Both the position numbers and the translations under genes were made by a program. This document shows, piece after piece, positions 2,088 through 64,000 of a stretch of DNA of 64,000 bases. The notes beneath the pieces are model-generated. The model worked only from the letters and a program-made list of their open reading frames with translations, had not been told where the DNA came from and made no database searches. Origin of the DNA: Candidatus Bathyarchaeota archaeon (GTDB taxonomy: Archaea; Thermoproteota; Bathyarchaeia; Bathyarchaeales; DTEX01). Within the stretch, counting starts at the first letter, position 1, and every line of letters begins with the position of its first letter. Where the stretch lies: assembly GCA_963714275.1 (NCBI GenBank), contig CAVQNT010000002.1, positions 320,001 to 384,000 on the forward strand, read 5' to 3'.

Positions 2088-2369
2088 AGTTCAACACCTC
2101 TACCTAACATGATTGATGTGCATTAAATAAATTTCGAACCCAATACAAAAAATGTATGTAAAGTAACAATATGTTTTTGGTTAATTATGGTTGTAATACG
2201 AGTCTAATGTCATAGAATATTGTTTCTGCGTTGTTTTTTCATAGAAGGGAGTTTGGCGGAGAGTTCAGTAATCTTAAGTAAGCGTTCAGTACAGACGTTT
2301 GGATAACATAGCTTTGAGCCCTCCTACTGATAGATAGCTAGCCTATGACTCATTGTTTCAGTTTGCTCG

Positions 2370-3914
2370 TTATATTTCAATTTTCAAGGCTTCTTGTTCA
2401 ATCTGTTTTGAAAGAATCCTGAAAACGATAGCGGAATAGATTAGAACGGGGACCGCAGAAACAAGTTTCGTTACAATGTCAAAACCTAGAAAAAGACTGA
2501 GTATTGCGTAGATGTATGTTGGGGTGATGAGAAGACCCGATAAAAACATTGCAGCATAATTAATCATTAAGGCAGGAGTTGCTCTTCGTTTCCTTGAAAG
2601 GAAACTCATCATCGTATACAGGTTTGCTGAGGACCCTATGATGGAGGCTGATGCGATCAACACTATGGGCACAATAGGGTCAGCGTGGTTGATGAAGGTG
2701 AGTAGGACAGTTGTTACAGCGGGAACAGCGAAGGCTAAAAGAGTGAAATCGTAGAGTATGGCTTTGGCGACAACTCCGAAACTCAGCCCCGACGTTATGG
2801 GCATCCAAAGGTTGTCCAGTTCAACCATTCTCCAATTGCTTGTTAACATGGCTGGAACTATGAACGAGTAGAAGGCTAGGAGGAATATCCACATGGGAAA
2901 AGTGGTTTCGTTGGGTCTGCTCGCAATATTTATTACCATCAAAACCGCGTAGAACATAAAAACCATGAAGAGACTGCCATCGCGCACTATTCTGACGAAC
3001 TCTTTTTTCATTAGAAAACTTTGAAGCGACTTCGAATCGAGGTTTAAGCTTGTCTGGAACCCAAACCGCGAAAAAAACTGTATGTTCTTTCCAGTTTTGA
3101 TTGTTTGAACCCTCATTGAAGTGTCAAACGGTGAAACGAAAGGAACAGGCTTCGCGAGCTGATAAAGGTTCAGGTTGGAGTAAAAAAGGAAAAACAAGGA
3201 GGAAACGAGAAAATAAGACAGTATACCCAAAACAGTTCCAACATTGGAGATTCTTCCATACAGAGAGTTGAGTATTATTTCCGCCAAAAATGTCGAAGGG
3301 TATGGGAGTTCGCTGTATTTTAGGGGAAAAGGAATCACTAGACTGACGGCAGGAAGCATCAACGATGCCAGAATAATTGTCAGAACGATTCGGACTAGGG
3401 CGTCTTGGCGGTAAGATTCCAGAATAGACAGAGATGTCTTCGTGAAGTAAACGAAAAACAAGAAGAGAACAAAACCTGTAACGATTAATATTGTTGATAG
3501 AACAGACAGCTGAAGAGAAACTATGGTAATGCAAAGACAGACGCCCAGTGGCAGCAAAAATACTGAGAGGGCTGTTAAGTCAGCTAGAAGGCTGACGATG
3601 AGATATGTTCTCGGAGTTATAGGAGACGTGAACAACAGGGTCTGTTCATATTCGTAGGCAACATATCCTCTGTAGGCGGAGAGCAGCAACAAGGCAACGA
3701 CGCTGCTAAGTAATGCGGCAAGGGGATTGAGGAAAGCTGTGATGTCAACTCCGCCTTTCACGACATTGATGACACTCAAAGACACGCCTATGCCCGACGG
3801 CAGCATACCCAAGACATAGACTACAATAAGAAGCAAGCTAGCCCGAGAAGACTTGAGGGCGCCTAAAAAAACCTTGACCTTAAACATGTAAAGGTCGCGT
3901 ACAACGCTCATCAC
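2370..3914 (-). CDS. ABC exporter permease
   Basis: Many TM helices; overlaps the ABC ATPase gene. Confidence 0.8.
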   Translation of the reverse strand: MMSVVRDLYMFKVKVFLGALKSSRASLLLIVVYVLGMLPSGIGVSLSVINVVKGGVDITAFLNPLAALLSSVVALLLLSAYRGYVAYEYEQTLLFTSPITPRTYLIVSLLADLTALSVFLLPLGVCLCITIVSLQLSVLSTILIVTGFVLFLFFVYFTKTSLSILESYRQDALVRIVLTIILASLMLPAVSLVIPFPLKYSELPYPSTFLAEIILNSLYGRISNVGTVLGILSYFLVSSLFFLFYSNLNLYQLAKPVPFVSPFDTSMRVQTIKTGKNIQFFSRFGFQTSLNLDSKSLQSFLMKKEFVRIVRDGSLFMVFMFYAVLMVINIASRPNETTFPMWIFLLAFYSFIVPAMLTSNWRMVELDNLWMPITSGLSFGVVAKAILYDFTLLAFAVPAVTTVLLTFINHADPIVPIVLIASASIIGSSANLYTMMSFLSRKRRATPALMINYAAMFLSGLLITPTYIYAILSLFLGFDIVTKLVSAVPVLIYSAIVFRILSKQIEQEALKIEI

Positions 3915-4732
3915 TTAGTTCTCCTGAACGCGCCGAAGATGCCATGTCTCACCTTTTTTGTTTGTTCTTCCGATTTTTCACTTGACGATGCTGTTCCCGT
4001 TTCTTCGGTGAGTTTCAAGAAAACCTCCTCTAACGTCGCGTTTTCTTCGGTTTCTGAGAGGCTTCGCAGTTGACTTAGGTCTCCGGTTGCCACGTTTCTG
4101 CCTTTGTGAATGATGGCGACGCGGTTGCACATTCTCTCGGCTGTGTCAAGCATGTGGGTTGAAAGAAAAATCGTTTTGTTCTCTTTTATTCTTGCGTTGA
4201 ACAGTTCTTTTATTGTGTGCTGTCCAGTGGGATCTATACCTATCAACGGCTCATCCAGTATGAGAAGGTCCGGGTCATGTATAAGCGCGGATGCCATAGC
4301 TGCCTTTTGCCTCATTCCCCTTGACAACAATAGTACGAGTGATTTTCGTTTTTCTTCCAAATCGAAAATCCGCAGGTACGTGTCGATTCTTTGCCTTATC
4401 AGCTCGTTGGGTATGCTTCGAATCTTGCCCGAATAAATCAGAAGCTCCTCAACAGTCAAGTAGTCAGGCAGCGAAACGGACTCAGGCACGTACCCGATTG
4501 ACCGCTTATATTCGTACGGGCTCTGCGTTGGGTCTAAGCCGTTAACGTTGATTGCGCCCTTATCCATCTTCAAAAGACCAACAATTATTTTTATGCAGGT
4601 CGTTTTTCCTGCGCCGTTCGGTCCGACAAGCCCGAAGATTTCTCCCCTTTTTGCCTCCAAGTCTAGACCGCTCAGTGCCTGAACCTCGTCGTATGCTTTC
4701 CAGACGTCGGTTAACTGTAATATTTCTGACAT
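3911..4732 (-). CDS. ABC transporter ATP-binding protein
   Basis: GPNGAGKT, LSRGM, LILDEP, STH. Confidence 0.95.
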   Translation of the reverse strand: MSEILQLTDVWKAYDEVQALSGLDLEAKRGEIFGLVGPNGAGKTTCIKIIVGLLKMDKGAINVNGLDPTQSPYEYKRSIGYVPESVSLPDYLTVEELLIYSGKIRSIPNELIRQRIDTYLRIFDLEEKRKSLVLLLSRGMRQKAAMASALIHDPDLLILDEPLIGIDPTGQHTIKELFNARIKENKTIFLSTHMLDTAERMCNRVAIIHKGRNVATGDLSQLRSLSETEENATLEEVFLKLTEETGTASSSEKSEEQTKKVRHGIFGAFRRTK

Positions 4733-4737
4733 ATGCT

Positions 4738-10860: not shown

Positions 10861-11152
10861 ATTCATTATACTCTCCTAATGACCGTATATGCATCTTTAA
10901 AAAATGACCGATATAAACATATATATCAACCAGCATAACTACTGCCGATGATTTATAAGCTAGCTGACTAATTTTAGCAAGAAATACTAGAAAGAAGAGT
11001 TCCCACATAACGCGCGCGCACTCCTTTTCTCAGACAAGCGAATCGTTTTTCAAGTCAATGCGACATTAAATGTATACTGCTGCTTGATTTGGTCGCAATA
11101 CCTAGATTGCAATACATACCCTACAAGCGGATTTGAGAAGGCAAGAAAGCAG

Positions 11153-14417: not shown

Positions 14418-14605
14418 CTATGAGATACAAATATTGTAAATACATAAAAGACAATGTGCGTAGCTTAACCCAACACAAAAAATTATTTTTTTTCTAATAA
14501 TTTTGAATTGTATTAATTTATTAGTCCTAGAAAAGAAGCTAGCTAGCTAAAGGATATATTTAGAATTACCAGCTAAAAAGGAATGAATTGAAATAAGGGA
14601 CTGCA

Positions 14606-18757: not shown

Positions 18758-18873
18758 ACTAGCTGACTAATACAACAGGCACACTAATCTCTGGATTGTG
18801 GAAAAAAAATAGAAAGACATCCACAACTCTAATGTAGCCTCGAATACGTAACGCTTGGGCATTATATCTTTAG

Positions 18874-24060: not shown

Positions 24061-24228
24061 ACGTTGGTTTAGGGTTTGGTTTAGGGATTAGATTATAATT
24101 TTTTCTTCTTTCTTGTTACGTTATGTTCTCTTCTGTTCTGTGTGCTCTCTATACTCTACTCTCTACACTACTCTATTCTGCACAAAAAAACACAAATAAA
24201 AAACACACACAACGCAAAGCTCAGCTAG
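24061..24228 (-). repeat. copy of the strand-skewed dispersed repeat, ending in AGCTCAGCTAG
   Basis: Reverse complement of 24085-24180 resembles 30551-30635. Confidence 0.7.
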
Positions 24229-26680: not shown

Positions 26681-26825
26681 GCTAGCTAGCTATGTGTATG
26701 ACTTTTTTCAATTCCAATAATCCTCATTAACGTAACCAAATCAGACTCTGGCTATCGTAGCTTCTGTTCCTTTTTTAGGAAAGGATATATTTTTGGCTAA
26801 TATCATAATTCTGGAAGTGTTGGAT

Positions 26826-27281
26826 ATGGTAAAGGCGCTTATTCTGTATCATTCGCAAGAATTTGGTAACACTGCTGTTATGGCGGAGGCGCTTGCTGAA
26901 GGATTAAGAACTGCTGGCTGTGAAGTCGATTTATTTAACACAAATGATAAGCGCTTCGACCTAACAGAATTCCCTAAATATGACTGCGTAGCCTTCGGCT
27001 CACCAAATTACTACAGCTACATAGCGGGTGGATTAAAGACCTTTATGGATGACCATTACATCCAAGACGTCCGCAAGGGTTTAAAAGGAATTAAGGGAAA
27101 ACCTTACGCCCTTTTCTGTTCACATGGCGGAGGCACTGAAGTAAAGTCAGTGATGGAGGATATCTTCAAACGAGTGGGCACTCAAATTGGAAAAACTGTT
27201 GGATCATATGGAAAGCCAACTCTAGAAGTCTTGAACCAATGCAGAACTTTAGGTAAGAAACTTGCAGAGTCAGTTTCTTGA
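26826..27281 (+). CDS. flavodoxin-like protein
   Basis: YHSQEFGNT, FGSPNYY, FCSHGGG. Confidence 0.9.
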   Translation: MVKALILYHSQEFGNTAVMAEALAEGLRTAGCEVDLFNTNDKRFDLTEFPKYDCVAFGSPNYYSYIAGGLKTFMDDHYIQDVRKGLKGIKGKPYALFCSHGGGTEVKSVMEDIFKRVGTQIGKTVGSYGKPTLEVLNQCRTLGKKLAESVS

Positions 27282-31386: not shown

Positions 31387-31568
31387 TCTCAAACCCAAAA
31401 AAACCCAAAATCTCTTCTTTTTTTCTTAATTCCAAATAACTGTAACTTTTTTATGTCAAATCTGATAATCTGGAATCCATGTTTTTAGTGAGCTGAGCTA
31501 GCTAACAGAGAGACGGACGGACAGACAAGAGACTATTCTAACTTATTTTTCAATAGACTAGCGCGCGC

Positions 31569-34011: not shown

Positions 34012-34108
34012 ATAAAGCCCCTTAACTATACTTCTTAAAAATGTTTATTAATCTATACATTAGAACACCACAACATTACCAAAAATAAACATCAGCTAAG
34101 CTAGCTAA

Positions 34109-34642
34109 CACTATTTTAAACAAGTTTTCAGCTTGATTTCTGGAAATCTGAGACATGAATCCCGCAAGAAGTTTAAAGCTTATGATGGAAAAAACAACGC
34201 TTTCAACTTGGCACATGAAGTCTTGTCATGGAAAGTTTACAGAGCCTTAATCAAGGCTAAGCTCGAACCGTATCTAGGCTTCTTGCATTCGGTTCAATTC
34301 GGAAAACCTAGTCTCGTATGCGATTTCCAAGAATTATACAGATACCTCATAGATGATTTTTTGATTGAACGGAGAACAAGGTTTCACAAAAACGACTTCG
34401 TAGTTGTAACGGACTTTATAATGCATCTTAGAATTGGAAAGAAAATTCATTTATGCGATTATGAAACTAACGAGTTAGCCTGATGGTTTAAACGCACTTT
34501 TCGAAAGAACCGTTGAAATTCCGAGGATAAAGGTAGGCAACAGACAACCCTTGAAACCCTGATTAACGAAGAAGCCTTGTTATTCGCCAAGTATCTGAGA
34601 AATGAACGTGAAACTTGGATTCCTAGAGTGCCTTCACTCTAA
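34109..34642 (+). pseudogene. cas1: solo Cas1/casposase-like integrase, C-terminal half, 5'-truncated at the motif cluster
   Basis: HYFKQVF..NNAFNLAHEVL..LEPYLGFLH..KPSLVCDFQELYR..ETLINEEALLFAKYLRNERETWIPR; frameshifts ~34479 and ~34547. Confidence 0.9.
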
Positions 34643-34716
34643 TTTTTGTTAAAATTATGATTAAATTTTTTGAAAGATTATATATATTATTAGTCAGAAT
34701 TAATGATTGGGAATTT

Positions 34717-35763: not shown

Positions 35764-35797
35764 CATGGATAGCTCAGCTAGAGAATCGAGCGTTTTA

Positions 35798-35970
35798 GGC
35801 TAGCTAGTTTTTTGTGTGATATATTATACTCTCTCTCATGTGTGTGAGTATATTTTTTCGTATTGTGAGGAGAGAGAGGTAGAGGAAGTAAGAGTAAGAT
35901 AGACAGAGAACATTAATAGTAGTTATAGAAGAAGAAGAAGAAAAGATTAAAATTTAATTCCTTCCTTCCT
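35798..35970 (+). repeat. ATTAAAATTTAAT-core repeat starting at GGCTAGCTAG
   Basis: Core at 35946-35958 after a purine-rich tract. Confidence 0.7.
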
Positions 35971-36062
35971 GAATTATGAACTGTTAATTCGACGAATATC
36001 TAAAAAACAATTTAGAAATTTGAAATAAAAGATGGATTTAAGATATTGTTATTTGATTCTGA

Positions 36063-36320
36063 ATGCTTAAAAATAGGTACAAAAATACAAAACACAATAT
36101 GAGTCCTTTTCGTCTAATTGTGTTAGGAATACTTTTTATCATGTGGACTGCTTTTTCATTCGGCATTTCTACAATTATGACTGATGCAAGATTTTCTGCA
36201 TGGTGGCAAATTGTAATTGCATTATGTTTCTTGTGGCTTTCCTATGTTGCCATCGGACGTCTTATTCAGGAAGCTAGTTACACTGTTAAGCCAATCTGTG
36301 ACTTGTATTTTTGCCTATAG
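36063..36320 (+). CDS. small 2-TM membrane protein
   Basis: 85-aa ORF. Confidence 0.5.
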   Translation: MLKNRYKNTKHNMSPFRLIVLGILFIMWTAFSFGISTIMTDARFSAWWQIVIALCFLWLSYVAIGRLIQEASYTVKPICDLYFCL

Positions 36321-36835
36321 TACCAGTTAGCTAGATATTCCGTTCTTCTGTTTACTTATAGCTGAAGAACACGAGAGAGAAATAAAGAACCTATCTAGCT
36401 AATATGTTTCGAGCTGTTTTAAGTAGAGTTACAAGTTCCTCTTCTGACAGATCATTTTTGTCGTTTGCTTTGTTAAGCTTTGCTCATAGCTGAGCTAAGT
36501 CCAAATGGTATCTAGCTTGTTTTTCTAGCTTTTCAGTCATTTTAATCTTTTTTTTAATATTTTTTGATTAGTAAAAGTGTTGTGAAACAAAATTACATGT
36601 TATAACTAAATAGCAGACATATTATTTGACAATGCTCAGCTAGTTGTCAAGATAGCTAGGAAGCTTACTTTCTCAACTTACAATTTTACTTCGGCAAGAC
36701 TTCCTAAAATAAGCCTTTGTCTTCGTCTTTTTGGTACGACTCTTTGATTCTCACCACTTCTTTCACGGACGTGGAATCCAAACTCTGAGTTCATAAGACT
36801 AAAATGTATATGGAATATAGATTTTTCGTATAATA

Positions 36836-37075
36836 ATGTTCGCAGCAGTTGAAGAATTAGAAGTCATGCCTGTCACTTCCAGCGAGGTTCTTCGGATTCT
36901 TGGGGCGTTGAACTCGGAGGTGCTAGAAAATATTCTGGATGAGACAAAGTTCTCGAAAAGAATCGCTTCTCTCCAAGAACAGAGGGTTATTGTTGTGGAT
37001 AAACCAGCAGGTCCTGTGGATTCTGCTACAGTAAGTGTTGAGGCTTCTATTGGGAGGGAATCTAGCAATGACTGA
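36836..37075 (+). CDS. hypothetical protein, followed by an overlapping short ORF to 37220
   Basis: ORF track only. Confidence 0.4.
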   Translation: MFAAVEELEVMPVTSSEVLRILGALNSEVLENILDETKFSKRIASLQEQRVIVVDKPAGPVDSATVSVEASIGRESSND

Positions 37076-37382
37076 GGGCGTTGACAAATTCGATTACAGG
37101 TCTTACATTAGGATGAAGGCATTCAAGATTCTGGACCGAAACGAAGGGGTGAAACTGACGAGGAAGACTCTTGGAAGTCTCGAAATTATCGGTTTCCATT
37201 TGGTTCCATCGATATACTGATGATTTGCTATAACTAGTTATTCGTAAGCTCAGCTAGCTTTGCATCAAACAGTTACTTCCAACTTACAGGAGTAATTGAG
37301 CAATCCCACTTCAGTGTTAGAAAAAATGAATGATAGTTTACTCTTTTCTTCTTCTTTAAACATGAAAGATATGGAATCCACG

Positions 37383-37533
37383 TAGCTAGCTAGCCAGAGA
37401 GAGAAAGAGAAAGATTAAATTTTAATCCCAAACCCAAACCCATACTTAATTACACCCCTATACTCCAATACTCATACTTACCAATACAAGGCTAAACAAA
37501 CAAACACAAACACACACAAAAGCTCAGCTAGCT
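37383..37533 (+). repeat. complete ~150-bp repeat unit bounded by AGCT-palindrome clusters on both sides
   Basis: TAGCTAGCTAGC-AG tract-ATTAAATTTTAAT-CCCAAACCCAAACCC-CA tract-AGCTCAGCTAGCT. Confidence 0.8.
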
Positions 37534-37643
37534 TATGGAGTTTTCGAGCGTGCTTTATTATCAATATTATCCAAGAACATCAATAATACTACAGAAAAAA
37601 TTATATATTCATTCATGTTAATAGATTTTTTTGTGAACGGGGT

Positions 37644-38331
37644 TTGAATTTGAATATCTATCCAATTGACTTTGGCTTTAATCAATGCTACATAATCCAG
37701 AGTGAAGGTACTATCATGATCGATGGTGGCTCCCCAAACAAGGCAGAAGCCTTTAAGCAAGCAATAGAAAAGATTCAGATGAACCCTCAAGATATCAAAT
37801 TAATGGTCTTGACTCATGGGCATTTTGACCACATAGGTTCTGCTAAGGAAATAAAGGAGATAACAGGCGCCAAGATCGCTATGCACCTATCGGACATAGA
37901 CTACATTGACAAATCCAAATGGACACATATGCTTCCAAAAGGAGTCGGTATCTGGGGTAGCATAAACAGCGCGTTAACGCACGTTGCCATACCTTTTATA
38001 AATTTCCCACCGTTCGAAGTCGACATAGTCATTAGAGATGAAGGGATGCCATTGACAGGTTTTGGAATCCCAGGTAAAGTGGTCTACACTCCTGGTCACA
38101 CTGCTGGATCTATCAGTGTCATATTGGACTCAGGAGACGCTTTTATAGGATGCTTAGCCCAGAACAAGACTACCATTGCGACTGAGTCCCGGACTGCCTG
38201 TTTTGGCTGACAACATCGAAAAAGTAAAGGAAAGTTGGAGATCAATATTGGATCTGGGAGTAAAAACGGTATATCCAGGACACGGAAAGCCCTTTTCCGC
38301 TGACATAATCCGAAAGGCTTTGGCTAGCTAG
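37644..38331 (+). CDS. MBL-fold metallo-hydrolase; frameshift at ~38169
   Basis: THGHFDHIG, TPGHTAGS, YPGHGKPF after correction. Confidence 0.88.
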
Positions 38332-38388
38332 CTTAGAGTGCGCGTAAGACGCAAGAGGTTTTACTAATATGAAGACTTTTATCAATCC

Positions 38389-39448
38389 GTGAACATACCT
38401 TTCGAATGTATGTTGAACGAATCTCAACTTGATAATAACATTGAATGGCTTTTAGCAAAAGGTTCATCCCCAATAGTTTATCTAACACATCTGAACCTCC
38501 TCAATCGAGAACACTGCACAATTGAGATGCAAGGACTGTGGAATCAAGTTCAGACTTCCTTGGATAGCAAGGAGATTTTTGGAAAACAGCGAGAGGACGG
38601 AAGCTGGTATGATGGTGGTTCTTGGTCGTATAAACCAACCTATATGCCCAAATCAGGTTATACGCCAGTAAGCCCAAAATACGTGACAACAGTCTGGCTT
38701 CTAGTTAAACTAGGTGAAATGGGGTACACAGTAAAAGATCCGAGGATAAGAAAAGCCTGTGAGTGGATGATGAAGTGGCAGTGGCAGAATGGGGTTCTTT
38801 CAGAGAAGAAAGAAGCTTCACAGTCACTGAGGGTTTGTCCTAATCCCTCTAATTTTCCTTGCAGGATGAGTATTCAGACTCGAAGCCTTAGCTAAAGTTG
38901 GTTTTGGTACTGATCCTAGAATGCGTAAATCTTGGGAGTTAATGCTGAGGTGGAGGCGTGAGGATAAAGGATGGGTTCATGATGGGCATCTTGATGGGAC
39001 AGCTTCACCGTACAAGATCTGGACTAGGAGTTGTCCTTATGTCTCTTATATTGCTACGAGCGCGCTCTTTTATTCTGGAGTCCCAGAGTACAAGAAGTAT
39101 GCTGAGGAGAGCCTAGACTTCATTCTGTGGCATATGGATCAGAAGGAGCCTAAGGATCTTCAGAGGTTTTTCTGGCATGGACATGAGCCATTGAAGGAGT
39201 TGTTGATGTTCAGTGAGGTTGGGTTTGATCCTGAGCAAAGGTCCATTCAGGTTCTCCTTGAGTGGCTTAAGGGAATGTATGACCCGGGTGAAGCGTGTTT
39301 TAGTTATAAAGGTAAACCCTATTCCAAGATGAATATTAAGGAGGATAATGCCACATCCCATGTAATGAAATATAGAATGTACCATCAAGCTGAGGATGAC
39401 TGGTTAACATATTACGCAACAAGGATATTCAAAAATTTCTTGAATTGA
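38389..39448 (+). CDS. prenyltransferase/squalene-cyclase-like helical-barrel protein; frameshift at ~38878
   Basis: QREDGSW, KYVTTVWLL, DPRIRKACEW; joined via LEALAKVGFGTDPR. Confidence 0.6.
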
Positions 39449-46559: not shown

Positions 46560-46772
46560 TAATGCCAATTATTGAAGCCTTTGTCTATCTTAACGCGCGT
46601 TGTCATCCTATGTAAACCTTTAAGAGCATCAGTTGGTGAGCGCGACAGTTTGGGTTGGGAATAAATTTTGATAAAAAAATTATGCCTGGTCTTTTTTGAT
46701 TACGTCTATACCAAGCAAATGCCTAGCCATGATCATATGCAAGTGAGGACCCATGGATAGTAGCTAGTCAGC

Positions 46773-46886
46773 TATGCGTCGTATCCGTTTTCGTTCTTTT
46801 TTCTGATGAGGGGATTAGGTGTCGTTAGGAAGCTTGGTCTTCCCGGGGTTGGTGGGAGTGATGCTCATTATGCTCAGGCTAGCTAG
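46773..46886 (+). pseudogene. internal fragment of a PHP-domain gene
   Basis: RKLGLPGVGGSDAHYAQ between two motif clusters. Confidence 0.75.
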
Positions 46887-46989
46887 CTAGAATCTCTTAG
46901 CTACGTTTAAATCAAGGAGAATCTGGCTTATTGAAATTTCTAATCCTTTTTTAAGCTAGAATACTTCCAGTGAAGGGCATTCTCCTATC

Positions 46990-47158: not shown

Positions 47159-49873
47159 TTATTCTTTTCTTGGAATTCTCCTCACTTTGAGGTTCTTCAG
47201 AAGGTCTTCTTGCGATGAAAATCCAAGCATACTCTCTACAGCTGCTTCTAGAAATGTTTGTACTGGAACAATCTTAACTTTTTTTTCCAGCAACATCTTC
47301 TCAGTGTCAAACTCTCCAAGTCTCTCATAATTGTACCTAGGTATCACAAGCTTGCGGGCGAATCTGTCAGATAGAGCTGCCTCGATTTTTCCCATCCCTC
47401 TGTAATCTAGGCCGCCGACAGGCCAGACCTCGCCTCTCGCTGTTATAGCGCCGGTCATTATTACAGTTGAGTCTACCTCCATGTTCAGGAAGGCTGAAAG
47501 CATCGCCACAGCGATCGCGATGCCTGCTGAAGGCCCAGAAACTGGAGGTCTAGTTATTCCCCAGCCAACTATTTGTTTCTCCATTCCCTTGGCTGGTGTT
47601 ACCAACTCAACATAGACATCGTACTTCCTGAACCTCCAACGCGAGATGGAGTTAATGTATATGAAAGCATCTTGGGCGCTGGCGAGGATGCTTTCTCCAG
47701 CCTCGCTTCCAATTATCTGTACTCTTCCCGATCCCTGTGGATTAACTACTACTTCGATGACTCCTACGAGACCCCCAAGTTCACCTCGTTCGCCTAAGGC
47801 TATTAGCCCGTAGCTTTTGCCGATCTCGGGGGTTTGGACTCTTATGGTGCGCTGGATCATACTTTGGGCTTCTACTTGTTCGTCGAAAGTGCTCTCTAGA
47901 GACTTCTCGAAGTGGTACAACCTAAGTGGATAATTGGATGGGTCAACTTTCCCCAGTTTTTCTGCAAGTTCAGGATCCTCTGCTTTGATCTTTAGGTTTT
48001 CAAACAGCCTCTCAAGATCGGCCTTGAATAACTCTTTTACCTTTTCAGTCTTCTCCTGCCCGTACTTCATCGCTTCTAGGAGCTTACGGCATGCCTCCAG
48101 CTCTTTAGTTCTCAGACGGTTCGCATCGTCAATTGCATCTGCGATCTTCCTAGGGCTGAGTATCTTCTTCTCAAAAACCCTGAGAACATCATCTGTAGTT
48201 GTCGCCTTCTCTAACATGTCATGATAACGCCGGAGGTGTACTTCCAGGATCTCCTTTTTTTCAGCCTTGTTTTTAGGATAGGTGAAGTCGAAGTTACGCG
48301 TAAAACGTTCTAGAAGGGCAGAATCAAGTATCTCAGCCCTATTTGTAGCTCCGATCACTACGACATTTGTTAGGGGTGTGAAGCCATCTATCTCGGTAAG
48401 GAGCTGAGAGACTACACGGTCAACAATCGGGTCCTGGGTCCCCCTTTTTGGAGCAATAGAATCTATCTCGTCGAAAAAGATGATTGCAGGAGCATTCTTA
48501 CGTGCATCCTCGAAGATGTCTCGAATAGTCTTCTCAGGGTCCCCATAATGGCCTTGAAGTATAGAGGGACCATTTATGTTGTAGAACCATACATCGTTCT
48601 CGCCGGCGATTGCCTTTGCCAACAGAGTCTTTCCAGTTCCTGGGGGCCCATAGAAAATGAAGCCCTTTGGAGGATGATATCCAGCCTTCACAGCCAAATC
48701 AGCGTCCAAAGCTAAGGATATCTCCTTGATTATCTCTTCCTTAACTCCGTGAAGACCCCCAACATCATTGTACCTTTCCCTCGGCGCGATCCGGTTTCCG
48801 GCTCTCTTCGCTGCTTCAGTCTTCTCTTGAGACGTGTAGGTTTTAAGTCTTCGAGCTGCGGCTCGGAAATCATTTATTGTGACAAGCTTCCCCAGGTTCA
48901 CTTTTTTGGTACTCTTTTTCTTGACTAAATTGACTAGTTGCTGCTGGATTGGTCGGGATTTCTCCGTCATAACGATATCGAAGGCGTTAACTATGTCTGC
49001 TGGCGTTAGGCGGGTGCTTCCAACTGCCCTAAGCGAGTCTTCAAGGACCTCCACGATCTCGACTGGGTTCAGCGTTATGTCGTATTTACGATTCTGCCTA
49101 CGCGCTATCTCTATGAGCATTAGGCGATTCGTGCCTGCGTCCAGATCAATAGTGCCTACGAGACCCCTTCTACGAAGCGTCTCTGTGATTGTTTCGTATT
49201 CGCTCGTGGCAATCAGCAAGACACACCTATAATTTCTCTTCTGCAACTGGTCAATCTTCTCTAAAAAGACGGTTTGGACCCTTTTCTCCTCCATTCCCAC
49301 TTCTGTTGTTGAAGAGAACCTGCTTCCGAAGGCTTGAAACTCATCGATTAGAATAATGCTTGGTTTTTCAAAAGCTTCTTGAAAGAAAGCCCCAAGCTGC
49401 TGTGCGCTCCTTCCATACCACATGGTGTAAACATTTTCAGGCTTTAAATAGGCATAGTGCACAAGCATGCCGTACTTTAAGCCTTCATCAAACACTGCTC
49501 TTTGACAAGCCTCAGCGAAAAAGGTCTTGCCGCTGCCAGATCCACCCTTCAAAATAAACACTTTTGATGGTGGCACGGGGCAGGTTTTCCGAATTTCAGG
49601 ATCTCTGTAGACGTGGTAATGAGCGCTAACCAAGATCCTGCTGAAATCATCTTCTCCGCCTACGACATCCTCTCTCCTAACGTTTGGGAAGTCCATCCTT
49701 TTCCGTATCTTCTTCGCACGTCTTTCCGCTTCGCTCCTCCGTTTTTCAGGAGGCTTTTGGAGAAATCTCCACAACCTGTACTGCCACGAGGAAACATAGA
49801 GTAATGGCGCGAAAGATTTTCTAATCCTGGGCTTGGAGTGCCACCACTGGTCTACAAATTCATCTTCTTCCAT
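47159..49873 (-). CDS. tandem AAA ATPase fused to Lon (S16) protease domain
   Basis: GGSGSGKT/LIDEFQ; GPPGTGKT/FFDEID/GATNR; SGPSAG, MTGAI, PVGG, GKIEAA. Confidence 0.9.
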   Translation of the reverse strand: MEEDEFVDQWWHSKPRIRKSFAPLLYVSSWQYRLWRFLQKPPEKRRSEAERRAKKIRKRMDFPNVRREDVVGGEDDFSRILVSAHYHVYRDPEIRKTCPVPPSKVFILKGGSGSGKTFFAEACQRAVFDEGLKYGMLVHYAYLKPENVYTMWYGRSAQQLGAFFQEAFEKPSIILIDEFQAFGSRFSSTTEVGMEEKRVQTVFLEKIDQLQKRNYRCVLLIATSEYETITETLRRRGLVGTIDLDAGTNRLMLIEIARRQNRKYDITLNPVEIVEVLEDSLRAVGSTRLTPADIVNAFDIVMTEKSRPIQQQLVNLVKKKSTKKVNLGKLVTINDFRAAARRLKTYTSQEKTEAAKRAGNRIAPRERYNDVGGLHGVKEEIIKEISLALDADLAVKAGYHPPKGFIFYGPPGTGKTLLAKAIAGENDVWFYNINGPSILQGHYGDPEKTIRDIFEDARKNAPAIIFFDEIDSIAPKRGTQDPIVDRVVSQLLTEIDGFTPLTNVVVIGATNRAEILDSALLERFTRNFDFTYPKNKAEKKEILEVHLRRYHDMLEKATTTDDVLRVFEKKILSPRKIADAIDDANRLRTKELEACRKLLEAMKYGQEKTEKVKELFKADLERLFENLKIKAEDPELAEKLGKVDPSNYPLRLYHFEKSLESTFDEQVEAQSMIQRTIRVQTPEIGKSYGLIALGERGELGGLVGVIEVVVNPQGSGRVQIIGSEAGESILASAQDAFIYINSISRWRFRKYDVYVELVTPAKGMEKQIVGWGITRPPVSGPSAGIAIAVAMLSAFLNMEVDSTVIMTGAITARGEVWPVGGLDYRGMGKIEAALSDRFARKLVIPRYNYERLGEFDTEKMLLEKKVKIVPVQTFLEAAVESMLGFSSQEDLLKNLKVRRIPRKE

Positions 49874-49875
49874 CG

Positions 49876-50655
49876 TTAAACGCCTGCTGGTAATGTGAAG
49901 GTTGTGAAAGTGTAAAGCTCGTATATCGCTAAGGCGCTTATGGCTATCACTACGACACAGAGGATCCAGCGTTTATTTGATACGATTTCCTTCTTGTTCT
50001 TGAAGTAGGTATCTAAGAAGAGGAAAACATTGGAATACGCTATGAGACCCGCGGCTGCTAAGAGTAATATCGAATTAAACGGCGTGGGAAGCTCGATGAA
50101 AAAAAAGTTGGAGGTTCTGCTATTAACATTTAACAAAATATTTATCGTCCAGTTTCCAGGCGGACGAGTGTAAGGACCCCTCAAATCAACAAAAGATTCA
50201 TGCGTTTTCACGTTTTTTCCATAGAAGTCAAAATAGAAGGCGAAATCTCGTACATAAACACTTATTAAATAATCCCAAGGCATGTCACTTCGAAAAGTGA
50301 TTGTTAGGTTATAAAGACCACCGGATTGGGGACGTACCCAGATAGCTGTTGTGTTTGTTTTGTAATAAGGGTCTGTGTAGCTTGTCGATATTGATAGATC
50401 AAAGGGAAGGCTTCTACTCAGGGGCGTACATACAACTGATGTATATTCCACGGGATTAACATAGACTGTAAGAGTATCCCCTTCAACAGCATCCAAATCG
50501 TAGCGATCGACATATTCCAAGTTCGCAGCACATATTACCCTAGGACAAATAAGAAACACCAACAAAAGAAGCGCGAAAAATATCGAAAGCAGTTCGATAG
50601 ATAAATGCCTTCGTAATTCTTTCGTGAACATGTTCTTTGTTCCGAGCATTTTCAA
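49876..50655 (-). CDS. membrane protein (signal/TM, extracellular beta domain, 2 TM)
   Basis: Ends 2 bp before the AAA-Lon start. Confidence 0.7.
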   Translation of the reverse strand: MKMLGTKNMFTKELRRHLSIELLSIFFALLLLVFLICPRVICAANLEYVDRYDLDAVEGDTLTVYVNPVEYTSVVCTPLSRSLPFDLSISTSYTDPYYKTNTTAIWVRPQSGGLYNLTITFRSDMPWDYLISVYVRDFAFYFDFYGKNVKTHESFVDLRGPYTRPPGNWTINILLNVNSRTSNFFFIELPTPFNSILLLAAAGLIAYSNVFLFLDTYFKNKKEIVSNKRWILCVVVIAISALAIYELYTFTTFTLPAGV

Positions 50656-50872: not shown

Positions 50873-51032
50873 GCTAGCTCAGCTATTCTCTTCATATCCA
50901 TATGCTAAAGTAAGGGAGAGGAACTACATTGATCGTTATATGTAGTATAGATAGGGATAGGCAAGTATTGGGTTTGGGTTGGGCGCTTAATTTTAAGGTA
51001 GATTCAGATGAATTTGACTAGTAGCTAGCTAA
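50873..51032 (-). repeat. divergent copy of the CCCAAACCC repeat unit, bounded by motif clusters
   Basis: Minus strand CCCAACCCAAACCCAATACTT resembles 37427-37447. Confidence 0.65.
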
Positions 51033-51930: not shown

Positions 51931-51931
51931 A

Positions 51932-52480: not shown

Positions 52481-52661
52481 GATTAGATCGCCTATAAATT
52501 GTGATAAGCATGCTTCCGCTTTACTTATTCAAAATGCTAGTCAGCTACATCGCAGCCCAAACGTATGCCCAAACCATGTGTCCGAGGAAAAACAATCCGA
52601 AGTCTCCTTAATTGCTTCCTCTTGTAATATATTCCAACCTAAAAACTAAATATGCTTTCAG

Positions 52662-52744
52662 CTAGGATCGTCTGGTCGTCAGCTATTCCTTTTGTAATTG
52701 CTGACTGTTTGACCAGGCGATTCTGGATTCGGTTTTTATTCCTG
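52662..52744. repeat. bulged hairpin repeat, copy 2
   Basis: Same stems as 27336-27417, different loop. Confidence 0.85.
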
Positions 52745-53478
52745 ATTAATTGCTTGTTTTAGCTGAGCTATACTGAATTCTTTAATAATTACTATAGTAG
52801 CTAGCCGGCTCTTGTTCGTAAAAATTGGTTGTTTTTTGTTGCTTTTTGTTGTTTTTTGTCACTTTTTGTGTGTGATCTGAAAAAAAGGGTTTTGTTTGAG
52901 GACGTTTAAAAAGGGTGGTTTTTATTGGCATGTCAAGTTTTTCTCGAGTTTTCCCTATGCTGCGAAGCTTGCCATTGTCGCCATCAGTATGCCAAGGGTG
53001 CCTGAAGAAATTTAAAAATGCGGTTTCAGTTTCTGCTTTCATCATTTCTTCCGATACAGTGTATAACTTTTCCGCTAAAATCAAAAACTGGCTTAGCTAA
53101 TGGAATCTTCATTCCAAAACACTCGCTTAAAGGAGATCATAGGTTCATTTCAATAAAAACTATGACATTATGTCAGCAAAGTAATGTTCCAAGGAATTAT
53201 TATTCAGTTTTTCATATCACTCAAATAAAAACGCCTATGGAAAAACCAGTTATTTTTCTATATCAGTGTTCTTTACGCTAAATCTAAACACCAACTATGT
53301 TCAACCATAAACAACAAAGCGATTATCAAACTCAAACTAATGCAAAATTGTATTGTACAACCAAAGTTCAAAAAACAGATAAAAGAACCCGGCATTTTGC
53401 ACTCGCTAGAGATGTGTACGAAGTGCGTAGGAAGGCTTAAATATCGAATTAGGACCGTTAAACGGTGGAGGCATCGAT

Positions 53479-54062: not shown

Positions 54063-54378
54063 GACTGCCCAACTATGCCTTCTCAACAGTTCCAAGCAGC
54101 ATCTTCACCACCATAAAGCCTCAAATCAGTAAAAACTCAGCCTGATGCACCATTATATTACGCAACCACTATCACATCCATCCCGCCTCAACTTCACTAA
54201 ACACCCGTCAGTGAGCTGAGCTAAACACTTATGGGGAAATTAGCTAAGAAATATGCTTTGCCGGGATGCCCAAGTTGTCATTTTATCTTCTCATCTCCCC
54301 GGCAGCTTGGGTTTCCCGGCACCCCTCTCCCCAAGACGGCACAGACTGCTTAAATGTTGTTTTCCTGAAGCTTAAGTC

Positions 54379-61344: not shown

Positions 61345-61543
61345 AGCTTCTGTTCTTTTTTTAGGAAAGGATATATTTTTGGCTAATATCATAATTCTGG
61401 AAGTGTTGGATATGGTAAAGGCGCTTATTCTGTATCATTCGCAAGAATTTGGTAACACTGCTGTTATGGCGGAGGCGCTTGCTGAAGGATTAAGGACTGC
61501 CGGCTGTGAAGTCGATTTATTTAACACAAATGATAAGCGCTTC
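61345..61543 (+). pseudogene. truncated duplicate of the flavodoxin promoter and 5' end (26759-26957)
   Basis: 199 bp with 3 mismatches; bounded by motif clusters. Confidence 0.92.
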
Positions 61544-61737
61544 AAGCTGACTAACTGTTAGCTAGCTAAGAGTATTCCTTCTGGAAGCTCCCTAGTTCTT
61601 CACCTCTTCTTTTACTCTAAAAAAATATGGTTGTTTTTAAAAATGACGAACAATGACAGATTTAGGGAACACCTGCAAATACAGAAGTGGAAGAATAAAT
61701 GTCTAGTCAAAGGACAAAAAGGTGCGTGTAAAAAAAT

Positions 61738-62667
61738 TTGGAAAACATCAAAAGGAAAGAGATTAAAGATGTTGTTCCTGCTATTTTTCTAATTGGTAGT
61801 CTATTTGTCATTATCGACACTTTAGCTTTGTTGACTGTTGAACCATATGAAGCCTCTGGTGTTGCGGTGTTTAGTAATCCAAATGACCCAGTGGATATTG
61901 TATATTTATTTTTGACATTACTGGGGTTTACATTTGCGTTTTTGTTGATCGCTAGATTTTGGAAAAAACAGTTGATACGTGGAATTGTCTTAATGTCAAT
62001 TGGGCTAACAGTTTTCAGTACGGCCTTTACTTTGTTGGCAACTTTGTTTCCAGAAGAGTGGTCACTGTTTCTTTCAATAACGACCGTAGTACTTCTAGTT
62101 CTAATACTCATCAAGTATCCTGAATGGTATGTGGTAGACACATGCTGCATAATTGTGGGAGCTAGTGCCATCGCAATGCTTGGTATCTCATTGAGCATTT
62201 TCCTCGTGATTGTTTTGCTTATTGGATTAGCGATATATGACGCAATATCAGTCTACATAACTAAACACATGATTGACCTTGCAGACGCTCTCTTGGATCT
62301 TAGGTTACCAATAATATTCACTATACCGATAACTAGAAACTATTCGCTGATTAAAGAAACGAAGAGTCTTAAAGTAAAACTCAAGGACAATGAGAAACGG
62401 GATGCGTTTTTTATAGGGTTAGGAGACATTATAATGCCTGGTACTCTGGTCGCTTCCACTTTTCACAATATTACTAGTAACGGTCTCCCTGTAGCCTTAT
62501 CAGTAATGCTGGGAACAATTTTGGGCCTCATAGTTCTCATGAGAACAGCCATTAAAGGAAAGCCGCAAGCAGGACTGCCTTTTCTTTGCGGTGGAGCAAT
62601 ATTAGGCTATTTGTTATCGAGCTATATGTTATTCGGAACATTCACTGGTCTTTTTCTGACTAGCTAG
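61738..62667 (+). CDS. presenilin/SPP-family intramembrane aspartyl protease
   Basis: YD, GLGD, AGLP motifs. Confidence 0.92.
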   Translation: MENIKRKEIKDVVPAIFLIGSLFVIIDTLALLTVEPYEASGVAVFSNPNDPVDIVYLFLTLLGFTFAFLLIARFWKKQLIRGIVLMSIGLTVFSTAFTLLATLFPEEWSLFLSITTVVLLVLILIKYPEWYVVDTCCIIVGASAIAMLGISLSIFLVIVLLIGLAIYDAISVYITKHMIDLADALLDLRLPIIFTIPITRNYSLIKETKSLKVKLKDNEKRDAFFIGLGDIIMPGTLVASTFHNITSNGLPVALSVMLGTILGLIVLMRTAIKGKPQAGLPFLCGGAILGYLLSSYMLFGTFTGLFLTS

Positions 62668-63052
62668 TAAACGCACTAATCAATAACTTCAAAATGTTAG
62701 GTCGTTTTTGTAGATGAGCAGCGCGCGCTAACTAAGGAGAAAGAAGCCTCAGTTTAATTCATGACAGTGGTTAATTACTAGACTCTGAGAAATTTGTCGC
62801 TGGTTCTAAGTTGGCTTAATTTCTTTTTTCTTTCCAAACCAGTAGATTATCACAGCTATTACCAAAAAAATTATTGTACTTACTGGTGCGAAGGTATTTT
62901 CCCCTGGGGCAGGAAATAACATTGATATACCTAGAAAGATAGTAACAATGATTCCAACCCAATAATACCATTTCAAACAGTTATCCTCGGCGTTACCATA
63001 TTTATCTTAATATTACCTCATCGACTGTACTGGGTCCTAATGTTTCGATAGT

Positions 63053-63859
63053 CTACTGTAACCGACGGCAGAGGTCGTCCCTAATGAATGCTGAACCGCG
63101 ATATCGTAGTGTTTGAGTTACCTGACGCACAGGTAAAGTATTCAAAACCTCTAACAGCTTAACAAGCTGCTTAGGAAGGTCCGCTTTACCCGGATCACCA
63201 AAGAAGATCTCTCCTGATTCGCCTCGCCACAACTCATCAATTGTAGTATCGCTGGGGAAGATGACTGGATAGTTGGCGTCGGGAGGACCATCAAGAGAAG
63301 GGATATATTTATAGAAAAGTAAAGGTCGGTTGTTAATCATTTTACTTGCAGCGAAGCGGACAATAGCGTTCTGTTTCTTTAGCGGACCGAGATCCATGCT
63401 AATTAACAGTTGATCCCATAATGAGGCTTTACACAGTAAATGTCCGTTAGGCTGAGCTTCAGCTGTTGGAATGTCAGCATACATCTTTGGCCAGCCTACC
63501 TGTTCCCGACCTCTAATGATTGGAATAGCATCGTTCAAGAACATCACTAGAACATTCTCGCCCTCAACATGGTCCTTTTCACCATCAAAACGTGCAGCCA
63601 CTTGCACAGCAACTTCATTATACCCGCGATCTGCCATGAAGTCGACATGATTATAGTAGGCAAACTAAACGGTTACGACGGGCTTCTCAGCTAGTTGGAA
63701 ACAGTCGGGTATAAGAGGCTGGAGGGCATCAGAATCGGTTTGGTACTGAAGAAGAAGCCATTCAGCCTCGCCTAAATGGGGACGATGGTCCTCTCTTTTC
63801 TCAGCAATCGGCCCACCAATCAATGGCATCAAATAAATTTTGCTTGGATCAATCTTCAT
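63053..63859 (-). pseudogene. acetoacetate decarboxylase family protein with one in-frame TAG (63665-63667)
   Basis: VVTV*FAYYNHVDFMADRGYNE; GREQVGWPK. Confidence 0.8.
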
Positions 63860-64000
63860 GTTCTACTTCCCCTAATTTCGAATTGTATTACTACAACTAT
63901 GTAAGCCTATTCATGAAGTCCTCATATAAGCTCAGGTAGCTACCAAAAACACAGTGTGAATCATTGTTGTCTTTGTCCGCATTCAAGGCAAAAACGTACA

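What the first reader, a model, noticed from the sequence alone, without database searches (positions are those of the whole stretch)
2331..63942. Highly iterated TAGCT-N-AGCTA palindrome marks the joints of a gene patchwork
Seen: dozens of intergenic clusters. Clean copies include TAGCTGAGCTA (36487, 52760), TAGCTCAGCTA (35770, 50875, 55998) and AGCTCAGCT (24218, 37247, 37521). Tandem or degenerate forms occur at 10957, 11889, 14537, 15903, 18759, 23085, 26543, 26681, 27279, 28335, 30524, 31486, 34092, 37383, 38322, 42384, 43335, 46758, 46872, 51016, 52536, 54208, 61337, 61544 and 62656. The doubled motif is almost absent inside intact genes. It often supplies or abuts a stop codon and repeatedly sits at the breakpoint of truncated genes. 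Inference: it is a recombination or integration site, or a repair scar, of a system that splices gene-sized DNA pieces together. It is loosely comparable to cyanobacterial HIP1 or integron cassettes, but I know no description of it in archaea. Variants such as AGCTGACT and AGTCAGCT may be read errors of AGCTSAGCT.
Basis: partly seen in the sequence, partly recalled or inferred. Interest (0 to 1): 0.9.

Follow-up and report, generated by a model that had tools for sequence, protein, structure and literature searches.

The report
Stop-rich TAGC repeat marks DNA joints

Summary
The listed sites exist and far exceed chance: 13 AGCTNAGCT against 1.42 expected. The "TAGCT-N-AGCTA" form is probably a mis-rendering. 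Contigs of three other public runs lack the central letter at 36492 and 37251. Recent duplicates inside this genome disagree at these sites. Cleaner assemblies of relatives show only plain (TAGC)n, 8-16 nt.

The real feature is a (TAGC)n tract in a Bathyarchaeia genome. It is strongly over-represented (TAGCTAGCTAG 44 against 0.34), lies outside ORFs, shows no strand or gene-orientation bias, and has no conserved flanks. It is concentrated in low-coding islands. Its taxonomic spread is patchy: 20 of 251 genomes of the class.

Homology breakpoints fall on tracts about five times more often than in controls. Gene pieces are cut exactly there, while partner copies usually lack a tract. I favour a filler or scar laid down at break-repair junctions that then serves as portable microhomology (about 0.45). 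No enzyme was found. Part of the "truncated gene patchwork" comes from assembly frameshifts. My searches found no published description.

The parts
10957..10971 (.). tract site, rendered AAGCTAGCTGACTAA
11889..11903 (.). tract site, rendered TAGTCAGCTAGCTAA, directly upstream of a TATA-like AAACATATATTTA
14537..14550 (.). clean (AGCT)3 tract followed by a BRE/TATA-like AAAGGATATATTT
18759..18770 (.). tract site CTAGCTGACTAA. A 413-nt block that is 96% identical to C6:330819-331233 starts right after it.
24218..24228 (.). S-form site 25 nt from the end of a 992-nt gene copy (DUF2341 protein) that is 98.8% identical to C7:28053-29044
26681..26692 (.). clean GCTAGCTAGCTA tract
26759..26957 (+). 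source copy: promoter region and 5' part of a flavodoxin-like gene (ORF 26793-27281). It has no tract at either border of the copied stretch.
31486..31505 (.). long site, rendered TAGTGAGCTGAGCTAGCTAA
34092..34108 (.). tract site at the 5' cut end of a Cas1 gene remnant. One other run lacks 5 nt here.
34097..34630 (+). Cas1 remnant. It matches residues 164-341 of a 344-aa Cas1 of the same genome, with 4 internal stops. The N-terminal part is missing from the tract onwards.
35770..35780 (.). S-form site at which a 359-nt homology block (35413-35771) ends. A second site lies at 35798-35807.
36487..36497 (.). S-form TAGCTGAGCTA. The central G (36492) is absent from contigs of three other runs.
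36636..36643 (.). TCAGCTAG. The C at 36637 is absent in two other runs, giving GCTAGCTAG.
37245..37259 (.). rendered TAAGCTCAGCTAGCT. Two other runs lack 37247 and 37251, giving (TAGC)3 followed by T.
37383..37394 (.). clean (TAGC)3 tract
37396..37520 (.). 125-nt non-coding module lying exactly between two tracts, with a copy at C2:946194-946324. Its first ~50 nt are a very high-copy TATA-like element.
37521..37533 (.). S-form plus plain tract, directly upstream of an ATG of a metallo-beta-lactamase-fold gene
38323..38333 (.). clean tract that supplies the stop at the 3' end of the metallo-beta-lactamase-fold gene
46758..46774 (.). left border tract of a captured fragment
46774..46880 (.). 107-nt fragment, 91.6% identical to C5:166402-166508, bounded by tracts on both sides. 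The C5 copy runs on without tracts.
46878..46890 (.). right border tract GCTAGCTAGCTAG. It lies downstream of the AAA+/Lon-like two-gene module, which is the only part syntenic with relatives.
50875..50885 (.). S-form site upstream of the conserved two-gene module. A further site lies at 51016-51032.
52536..52547 (.). border tract. A 109-nt block homologous to C4:139166-139274 starts right after it.
52760..52770 (.). S-form site at which a 158-nt homology block (52602-52759) ends
54208..54224 (.). site rendered TCAGTGAGCTGAGCTAA
61337..61348 (.). left border tract of the flavodoxin fragment
61345..61543 (+). 199-nt copy (98.5%) of 26759-26957, cut inside the coding sequence and capped by tracts on both sides
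61544..61569 (.). right border: double site AAGCTGACTAACTGTTAGCTAGCTAA
62656..62670 (.). site CTGACTAGCTAGTAA at an ORF end

Best explanation
What is there (shown): a short tandem run of the tetranucleotide TAGC, 8 to about 16 nt long. It is self-complementary and carries TAG in all three frames of both strands. It is iterated several hundred times in this Bathyarchaeia genome and in a few unrelated lineages of the class. The 'TAGCT-N-AGCTA', AGTGAGCT and GCTGACTA forms in this window are most likely faulty base calls of the same tract, possibly because the tract is chemically modified (the modification is an inference). How it most likely works (inferred): the tract is laid down as filler when broken DNA ends are rejoined. 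Its self-complementarity would let any two such ends pair. Deletions, captured gene pieces and duplicated modules therefore end up bordered by it. Once present, the many identical palindromic copies act as portable microhomology and promote further shuffling. Because it stops translation in all six frames it survives only outside functional genes. It caps every truncated reading frame and sometimes becomes the working stop codon of intact genes. The enzyme responsible is unknown. Its patchy taxonomic spread suggests a horizontally moving agent.
For: Reality and enrichment:
- Searches show the excess. TAGCTAGCTAG occurs 44 times against 0.34 expected in intergenic DNA, and stop-C-stop-C-stop words 182 times against 11.5.

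Independence from this assembly:
- Contigs of 4 runs from 4 studies bridge the sites with the same flanks.
- Clean tracts occur in G002, with 18 of 20 sites, and in G138, with 60 in 78 kb.
- Orthologous tracts are shared by G138, G130 and G084 within diverged flanks.

Central-letter artefact:
- Searches show the missing letters.
- 4 of 4 sites inside internal duplicates of at least 98% identity differ between the copies.
- AGCTSAGCT is 161 in G000 against 20-36 in four relatives.

Junction link:
- 129 of 2061 self-HSP ends lie within 3 nt of a site (6.3%), against 1.3% for random intergenic positions and 1.1% for shifted ends.
- 56 of 295 inter-site segments have an HSP end at a border against 11-14 in controls, and 12 match exactly from border to border against 0-1.
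- A flavodoxin gene piece and a Cas1 remnant are cut exactly at tracts.

Scar rather than two-sided site:
- Source copies run on without a tract.
- In G138 against G130/G084, 7 of 66 block ends lie at a tract (1-4 in controls) and 0 of 7 partners has one.
- In one orthologous place G138 has 20 nt containing (TAGC)3 where G130 has about 540 nt without any tract.

Other points:
- Some source borders share TAGCT or GCT with the tract, which fits microhomology.
- There is no gene-orientation bias or intergenic-type preference.
- Patchy spread: 20 of 251 genomes hold the 12-mer, with high counts in 4 separate families. Within the genus only G000 and G002 hold many.
Against: - No agent was found. 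Ku is absent in 5 of 5 tract-rich genomes. Reverse transcriptase is absent in 10 of 10 genomes searched. The Cas1-solo, tyrosine recombinase and SSB-like families are multi-copy here, but they are widespread in tract-free genomes.
- Most breakpoints have no tract, and most tracts (42 of 60 in G138) lie more than 30 nt from any ORF end and at no detectable breakpoint.
- Some tracts are conserved at orthologous positions between species and change by point substitution. That fits a maintained signal as well as an old scar.
- Tracts overlap ORF stop codons 8 to 15 times more often than random placement, which could reflect function.
- The polarity of the 540-nt difference is not established, because no outgroup was used.
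- The cross-species count (7 of 66) is small.
- Breakpoint statistics inside G000 rest on a noisy assembly and on crude ORF calls.
Confidence: 0.45

Rival explanations
1. A maintained boundary signal. The tract is selected, or bound by a protein, as a strand-symmetric six-frame translation stop or insulator between genes and modules. Its link with breakpoints is secondary, because both lie at gene borders.
For: - It carries stops in all six frames. Stop-C-stop-C-stop words that lack AGCT are also about 8-10 times enriched, for example TAACTGACTAA 5 against 0.49. These may be mis-called tracts.
- Tracts supply or overlap the stop of ORFs of at least 100 aa in 8 of 60 (G138) and 4 of 17 (G002) cases, against 1.5-1.7% for random placement.
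- Intact genes end in it (Na/Ca exchanger, UDP-glucose dehydrogenase), and one (CTAG)3 ends both genes of a convergent pair.
- Orthologous tracts are kept in three species.
- Several sit just upstream of TATA-like boxes.
Against: - There is no orientation bias relative to flanking genes.
- Density is equal in convergent, divergent and tandem spacers, at 0.35-0.42 per kb.
- In G000, long sites overlap stops about as often as chance (15 of 199).
- 42 of 60 tracts in G138 lie far from ORF ends.
- Close relatives do without it.
- Selection for back-up stops would not yield one single sequence.
- Any ORF that runs into a tract ends there by definition, which inflates the stop overlap.
Confidence: 0.25
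2. A HIP1-like iterated palindrome, or a hyper-expanding tetranucleotide microsatellite. It would be produced by a lineage-specific mutation or repair bias (for example linked to methylation of CTAG or AGCT) and purged from genes. It would have no role in joining DNA.
For: - It is a perfect short palindrome and the top over-represented word after GCGCGCGC.
- It co-occurs with a second palindrome family, TAGC(GC)nGCTA.
- Tracts differ by single substitutions or by one unit between orthologues.
- Base-calling trouble at the tract hints at modification.
- The lineage distribution is patchy.
Against: - Only TAGC among tetranucleotide units is expanded.
- Homology blocks end within 3 nt of sites about 5 times more often than controls, and 12 segments match exactly from border to border.
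- Coding fragments are cut at tracts.
- An N6/N4 methyltransferase family is present in only 3 of 5 tract-rich genomes. Other methyltransferase families were not searched.
Confidence: 0.15
3. A two-sided site-specific recombination site, like an integron attC or a shufflon site. A dedicated recombinase would use it to exchange gene-sized cassettes.
For: - Modules between tracts are shuffled and replaced between G138 and G130.
- The islands hold multi-copy tyrosine recombinases with a transposase-type zinc finger, and Cas1 without Cas2 or arrays.
Against: - Partner copies lack the tract at the shared border (0 of 7).
- Nothing is conserved beyond about 11-15 nt.
- Cassettes show no fixed orientation.
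- The recombinase is found in 108 of 251 genomes and Cas1 in 74 of 251, with no relation to tract counts.
- Fragments are cut inside coding sequence, where no tract can have existed.
Confidence: 0.1
4. The whole feature is an artefact: a linker, chimera or assembler joint.
For: - Modules of read-like size (50-400 nt) are joined by a constant short sequence.
- Short-read contigs often end at tracts.
- The window assembly clearly carries indel errors.
Against: - The same junctions with the same flanks stand in contigs of runs from different studies and years.
- Tracts lie at orthologous places in three species whose flanks are 82-87% identical.
- Counts are high in assemblies of very different contiguity, from 1 contig (G102) to 150-220 contigs.
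Confidence: 0.03

Closest known systems
HIP1, the highly iterated palindrome GCGATCGC of cyanobacteria
   Same: A short perfect palindrome, hugely over-represented and lineage-specific, with no settled function. A link to DNA methylation is discussed for HIP1 (abstracts of PMC6604393 and PMC6105098 in the listing; the rest is recalled).
   Different: HIP1 lies in genes as well as between them (recalled). This tract blocks all six frames, is 45-56 times denser outside ORFs, is a tandem 4-nt repeat of variable length, and is tied to homology breakpoints. It occurs in archaea.
Integron gene cassettes with attC sites, also reported in archaeal genomes (recalled, not read here)
   Same: Short palindromic sequence at the borders of gene-sized modules in flexible regions. 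A stop codon often lies within the site.
   Different: attC is an imperfect inverted repeat of roughly 55-140 bp with conserved core sites and a neighbouring integrase (recalled). Here only 8-16 nt are conserved, orientation is random, partner copies lack the site, and no co-varying integrase was found.
Filler DNA, captured fragments and de novo repeat addition at repaired double-strand breaks (end joining, chromosome healing by telomerase)
   Same: Extra short sequence at deletion and insertion joints. Pieces of other loci are pasted in at breaks. There is microhomology at some borders.
   Different: Known filler is variable or templated locally. Here it is always the same self-complementary repeat. 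Ku and reverse transcriptase were not found.
REP/BIME elements, MITEs and other small dispersed repeats
   Same: Dispersed, intergenic and palindromic, in hundreds of copies.
   Different: Those are 20-400 nt with conserved arms, and often with target duplications. Here no flank is conserved.
Synthetic all-frame stop linkers ('universal translation terminators') used in cloning (recalled)
   Same: Palindromic oligonucleotides that stop translation in all six frames. (CTAG)3 is about the shortest such sequence.
   Different: Those are man-made. Here the sequence is conserved at orthologous sites across natural species and in many independent environmental samples.

Membership tests
HIP1-type highly iterated palindrome | short perfect palindrome far above expectation genome-wide | tested here: met
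   CTAGCTAG 216 against 20.9 and TAGCTAGC 243 against 25.6 (both strands). TAGCTAGCTAG 44 against 0.34 in intergenic DNA.
HIP1-type highly iterated palindrome | present within coding and non-coding DNA alike (feature recalled) | tested here: not met
   45-56 times denser outside ORFs. Of sites of at least 11 nt, only 8 of 199 lie inside ORFs.
HIP1-type highly iterated palindrome | contains a site methylated by a cognate methyltransferase | not testable with these tools
   Only indirect: systematic base-call errors at tracts. N6_N4 methyltransferase genes occur in 3 of 5 tract-rich genomes.
Integron cassette array (attC) | imperfect inverted repeat of tens of bp with conserved core sites | tested here: not met
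   Position matrix of 161 oriented sites: nothing is conserved beyond T-AGCTCAGCT-A.
Integron cassette array (attC) | integron integrase that goes with the sites | tested here: not met
   The multi-copy tyrosine recombinase scores 81.5 bits against a cut-off of 220 for the XerA/integron model. It occurs in 108 of 251 genomes regardless of tracts.
Integron cassette array (attC) | the site is present at the border in every copy of a cassette | tested here: not met
   Partner copies lack it: examples; 0 of 7.
MITE / REP element | conserved unit of at least 20 nt with inverted ends | tested here: not met
CRISPR array | regularly spaced repeats of 23-47 nt, with cas1 and cas2 | tested here: not met
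   A crude scan finds no array. Spacing of sites is irregular. Cas1 is present but no Cas2.
Tetranucleotide microsatellite | head-to-tail copies of a 4-nt unit | tested here: met
   Clean (TAGC)n of 8-16 nt in G002 and G138.
Tetranucleotide microsatellite | copy number varies between alleles or orthologues by slippage | tested here: inconclusive
   9 against 8 nt at one orthologous site. Differences inside G000 are confounded by errors.
Transposon target duplication or excision footprint | an element family whose copies are flanked by the 4-bp duplication | tested here: not met
   No high-copy element among self-matches, nor among the 18 largest protein families annotated, of 25 listed.
Ku-dependent end-joining scar | Ku encoded in the genome | tested here: not met
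   PF02735 in 0 of 5 tract-rich genomes. Their completeness is 79-91%.

The most novel reading that the evidence does not exclude
Some Bathyarchaeia possess a so far unknown, horizontally spreading DNA-joining activity. It tails or fills broken ends with a self-complementary (TAGC)n repeat. Every repaired break, captured fragment or deleted gene is thereby sealed with a built-in six-frame stop cassette. The resulting tracts then act as universal, orientation-free microhomology that drives module shuffling in flexible genome islands.
Probability: 0.2. Interest if true: 0.85.

Novelty: new variant of a known kind. Interest (0 to 1): 0.62.

Why it matters
- It would add an archaeal case to the small set of highly iterated palindromes, unusual in its six-frame stop property and its measurable tie to rearrangement joints.
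- It offers a handle on how flexible genome islands are built in an abundant, barely cultured group of sediment archaea.
- It hints at an unknown break-repair or integration activity.
- On the practical side, the tracts are a trap for long-read base calling and for short-read assembly. They create false motif variants, frameshifts and contig breaks. Motif surveys and pseudogene counts in such genomes need polishing first.

Tried and rejected
- Larger repeat unit: rejected. The flanks are not conserved, and Rfam and tRNA scans of the window found nothing.
- Back-up stop for the upstream gene: rejected. Asymmetric renderings point either way, and the three spacer types have equal density.
- Regular spacing: none.
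- Cas1-solo as the agent: rejected. It occurs in 74 of 251 genomes, many of them tract-free. Tract-rich G102 has no match, G143 only a distant 31% match and G138 only fragments.
- Tyrosine recombinase with a zinc finger as the agent: rejected (108 of 251).
- SSB-like OB-fold paralogues, which start right after a tract in G138: rejected (179 of 251).
- Ku: 0 of 5.
- Reverse transcriptase, for a telomerase-like idea: 0 of 5 tract-rich genomes and 0 of 5 tract-poor congeners.
- N6/N4 methyltransferase: 3 of 5, no pattern. C5 and Dam-type families were not searched.
- Restriction-cut fragments: not supported. Source borders show no constant site.
- Synteny with relatives around 47159-50655: only the two-gene module is shared, and the relatives are too distant to place breakpoints.
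- Expression: no RNA holder was listed for the stretch, so nothing can be said.
- Parts of 34000-39000 without contig cover in some runs were not interpreted.
- The joints in table 5 were looked at but not used as evidence, because min_likeness was 90 and a repeat is involved. These were a 48-nt skip at 36460-36507 in one X1 contig and a 1388-nt replacement ending 5 nt after the tract at 38322 in X3.
- Literature: five searches found no description of the tract. I saw only listings and abstract starts. No paper was opened and supplements were not seen. Statements about HIP1, attC, casposons, CTAG methylation in haloarchaea and cloning linkers are recalled.

Full report
**1. The observation**

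The window is C2:320001-384000 of a 2.64-Mb, 10-contig genome with 43-44% G+C. Titles of the nearest public relatives name it as Bathyarchaeia. The expectation is 1.42, and 0 of 100 shuffles reach 13. The C-centred and G-centred forms are one sequence read on opposite strands. All 25 'degenerate' positions hold related words. Plain AGCTAGCT (15 against 0.97) and CTAGCTAG (8 against 0.74) are just as enriched.

Genome-wide, the most over-represented 8-mers after GCGCGCGC are:
- CTAGCTAG
- TAGCTAGC
- AGCTAGCT
- TGAGCTAG
- AGTGAGCT
- AGCTCAGC

These words are 6 to 56 times denser outside crude ORFs. That is partly trivial, since they carry stops. Within intergenic DNA, TAGCTAGCTAG occurs 44 times against 0.34 expected, and stop-C-stop-C-stop words 182 times against 11.5.

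**2. The central letter is probably not real**

I laid contigs of four public runs from four studies on window 34000-39000.
- All covering contigs of X1, X2 and X3 lack 36492, the G of AGCTGAGCT.
- X1 and X3 lack both 37247 and 37251, which turns the site into GTAGCTAGCTAGCTTT.
- X1 and X3 lack the C of TCAGCTAG at 36637.
- X1 lacks 5 nt at 34094.
- No row was printed for the sites at 35771 and 37521, so they stay untested.
- Several of the other indels listed lie in homopolymers.

Further evidence points the same way.
- Inside G000, the 4 motif sites that lie within internal duplicates of at least 98% identity all differ between the two copies, for example TAG-TGAGCTA against TAGCTGA-CTA. Over all HSPs of at least 90% identity, 15 of 19 sites differ. 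That is less telling, because the background divergence is 4.6% per column.
- In G002, a congener assembled into about 170 contigs, 18 of 20 sites in eight loci are clean (TAGC)n and none is an S-form.
- In G138, from another family, 60 clean tracts lie in 78 kb.
- AGCTSAGCT counts are 161 in G000 but 20-36 in four relatives, close to G000's own in-ORF count of 37.

I conclude that the true unit is (TAGC)n and that this assembly renders it noisily. Base modification as the cause is my inference.

The same noise explains part of the 'truncated gene patchwork'. The metallo-beta-lactamase-fold gene at 37534-38333 is split across frames. Contigs of X1, X2 and X3 crossing 37865-38671 each show two gaps (table 8). 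Many adjacent same-family ORFs occur genome-wide.

**3. Anatomy and distribution**

- No flank is conserved, so the tract is not part of a larger element.
- Asymmetric renderings show no orientation bias relative to neighbouring genes.
- Density is equal in convergent, divergent and tandem spacers, at 0.42, 0.39 and 0.35 per kb.
- Spacing is irregular, with an excess of neighbours under 200 nt.
- About 700 sites were counted. Roughly 200 of them are 8-10-nt words inside ORFs and likely chance.
- The sites cluster in low-coding islands, of which this window is one.
- In clean assemblies the tract overlaps the stop of an ORF of at least 100 aa in 8 of 60 (G138) and 4 of 17 (G002) cases, against 1.5-1.7% for random placement.
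- Intact genes end in it, and one (CTAG)3 ends both genes of a convergent pair.
- Even so, 42 of 60 tracts lie more than 30 nt from any such stop.

**4. Taxonomic spread**

Among 31 relatives, GCTAGCTAGC is frequent only in G000 (42) and G002 (9). Among 251 genomes of the class, 20 hold TAGCTAGCTAGC. The high counts, summed over both strands, are:

| Genome | Count | Family |
|---|---|---|
| G138 | 80 | f31 |
| G102 (a single contig) | 53 | f31 |
| G084 | 37 | f31 |
| G000 | 31 | f1 |
| G143 | 22 | f27 |
| G169 | 8 | f26 |

. This patchiness, even within a genus, argues for a recently acquired or horizontally moving cause rather than an ancient signal.

**5. Link to joints**

Within G000:
- Of 2061 ends of self-matches, 129 (6.3%) lie within 3 nt of a site. 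Random intergenic positions give 1.3% and shifted ends 1.1%.
- Of 295 segments between neighbouring sites, 56 have a match ending at a border (controls 11-14), and 12 match another locus exactly from border to border (controls 0-1).

Examples in the window:
- 61345-61543 is a 98.5% copy of the promoter and first 55 codons of the flavodoxin-like gene at 26793. It is cut inside the coding sequence and capped on both sides.
- 46774-46880 is a piece of C5:166402-166508.
- A Cas1 remnant lacking residues 1-163 begins at the tract at 34092.

In nearly all examples the other copy runs on without a tract.

Between species:
- The G138 locus L054 matches G130 only as short blocks scattered over many contigs.
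- One block is replaced by an unrelated one.
- In one place G138 has 20 nt containing (TAGC)3 where G130 has about 540 nt without any tract.
- Over six G138 loci, 7 of 66 internal block ends lie at a tract (controls 1-4), and none of the 7 partners has a tract there.

Against a purely dynamic picture, several tracts sit at orthologous places in G138, G130 and G084 and differ only by point changes.

**6. Mechanism**

A two-sided recombination site is unlikely. Fragments are cut where no tract can have existed, namely inside coding sequence, and partners lack it.

The data fit best a filler laid down at repaired breaks, or insertion into an existing tract. Later reuse of the identical palindromes as microhomology would follow. 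Some source borders share TAGCT or GCT with the tract. Self-complementarity would let any two tailed ends pair; that step is inference.

I searched for an agent and found none:
- Ku: 0 of 5.
- Reverse transcriptase: 0 of 10.
- Cas1 without Cas2 or arrays: present in 74 of 251 genomes irrespective of tracts.
- The zinc-finger tyrosine recombinase: 108 of 251.
- SSB-like paralogues: 179 of 251.

A maintained boundary or stop function, and a HIP1-like mutational origin, remain serious rivals.

**7. Comparison and novelty**

The closest known thing is HIP1 of cyanobacteria. This tract differs in four ways: it is excluded from genes, it is a tandem repeat, it stops all six frames, and it is tied to breakpoints. 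It fails the defining features of attC sites, MITE/REP elements and CRISPR arrays (see the membership table).

Five full-text searches found no description. I saw only listings and abstract starts, and subscription journals are not covered. I rate it a new variant of a known kind. It is real and unusual, with the mechanism open.

Noticed in passing
window 34097-34630; also G000 C4:100201-101235, C7:144190-145224, C2:934178-935189, C9:5281-5751, C6:417572-417982, C10:15392-15712: Multi-copy Cas1 without Cas2 and without detectable CRISPR arrays. There are two full-length genes (344 aa, 57% identical) and five remnants, mostly C-terminal pieces. Neighbouring genes have no Pfam match. Homologues, often also as C-terminal fragments, occur in 74 of 251 Bathyarchaeia genomes. 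This may be a casposon-like or otherwise solo Cas1 family.
   Followed up: partly
window 37396-37446, inverted copy near 35900-35945: A ~50-nt purine-rich element with a TATA-like core (…AAAGATTAAATTTTAATCCCAAACCC…). Summed contig depth reaches 127-694 in four metagenomes, against 1-30 around it. Many different flanks are seen. It is likely a very common promoter-like element of these archaea or of their mobile DNA.
   Followed up: partly
genome-wide; G138 loci L054, L057, L058: A second over-represented palindrome family built on GC repeats. GCGCGCGC occurs 140 times against 7.7 expected and TAGCGCGC 64 against 11.9 (both-strand counts). It often abuts TAGC tracts, for example TAGCTAGCgcGCTAGCTA.
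   Followed up: partly
window 47159-50655 (minus strand): A two-gene module: a 904-aa protein with two AAA+ domains and a Lon-protease C-terminal domain, plus a 259-aa partner. It is the only part of this region syntenic with relatives (70-82% identity). It is flanked by tracts on both sides. It may be a defence-type module.
   Followed up: partly
G000 C2:430413-431672 and about six further loci: A multi-copy 419-aa tyrosine recombinase with an N-terminal IS1/IS1595-type zinc-binding domain. It is found in 108 of 251 genomes of the class, often in several copies. It may be a tyrosine-recombinase mobile element.
   Followed up: partly
whole genome G000: The assembly appears to carry many single-base indels, in homopolymers and at tracts. 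Crude ORF coverage is only 76%, and many adjacent same-family ORFs look like split genes. Gene and pseudogene counts from this record should be treated with care.
   Followed up: partly
G000 C2:80457-89565 and C2:962456-971573: A 9.1-kb inverted duplicate at 98.1% identity within one contig, in the tract-rich islands.
   Followed up: no
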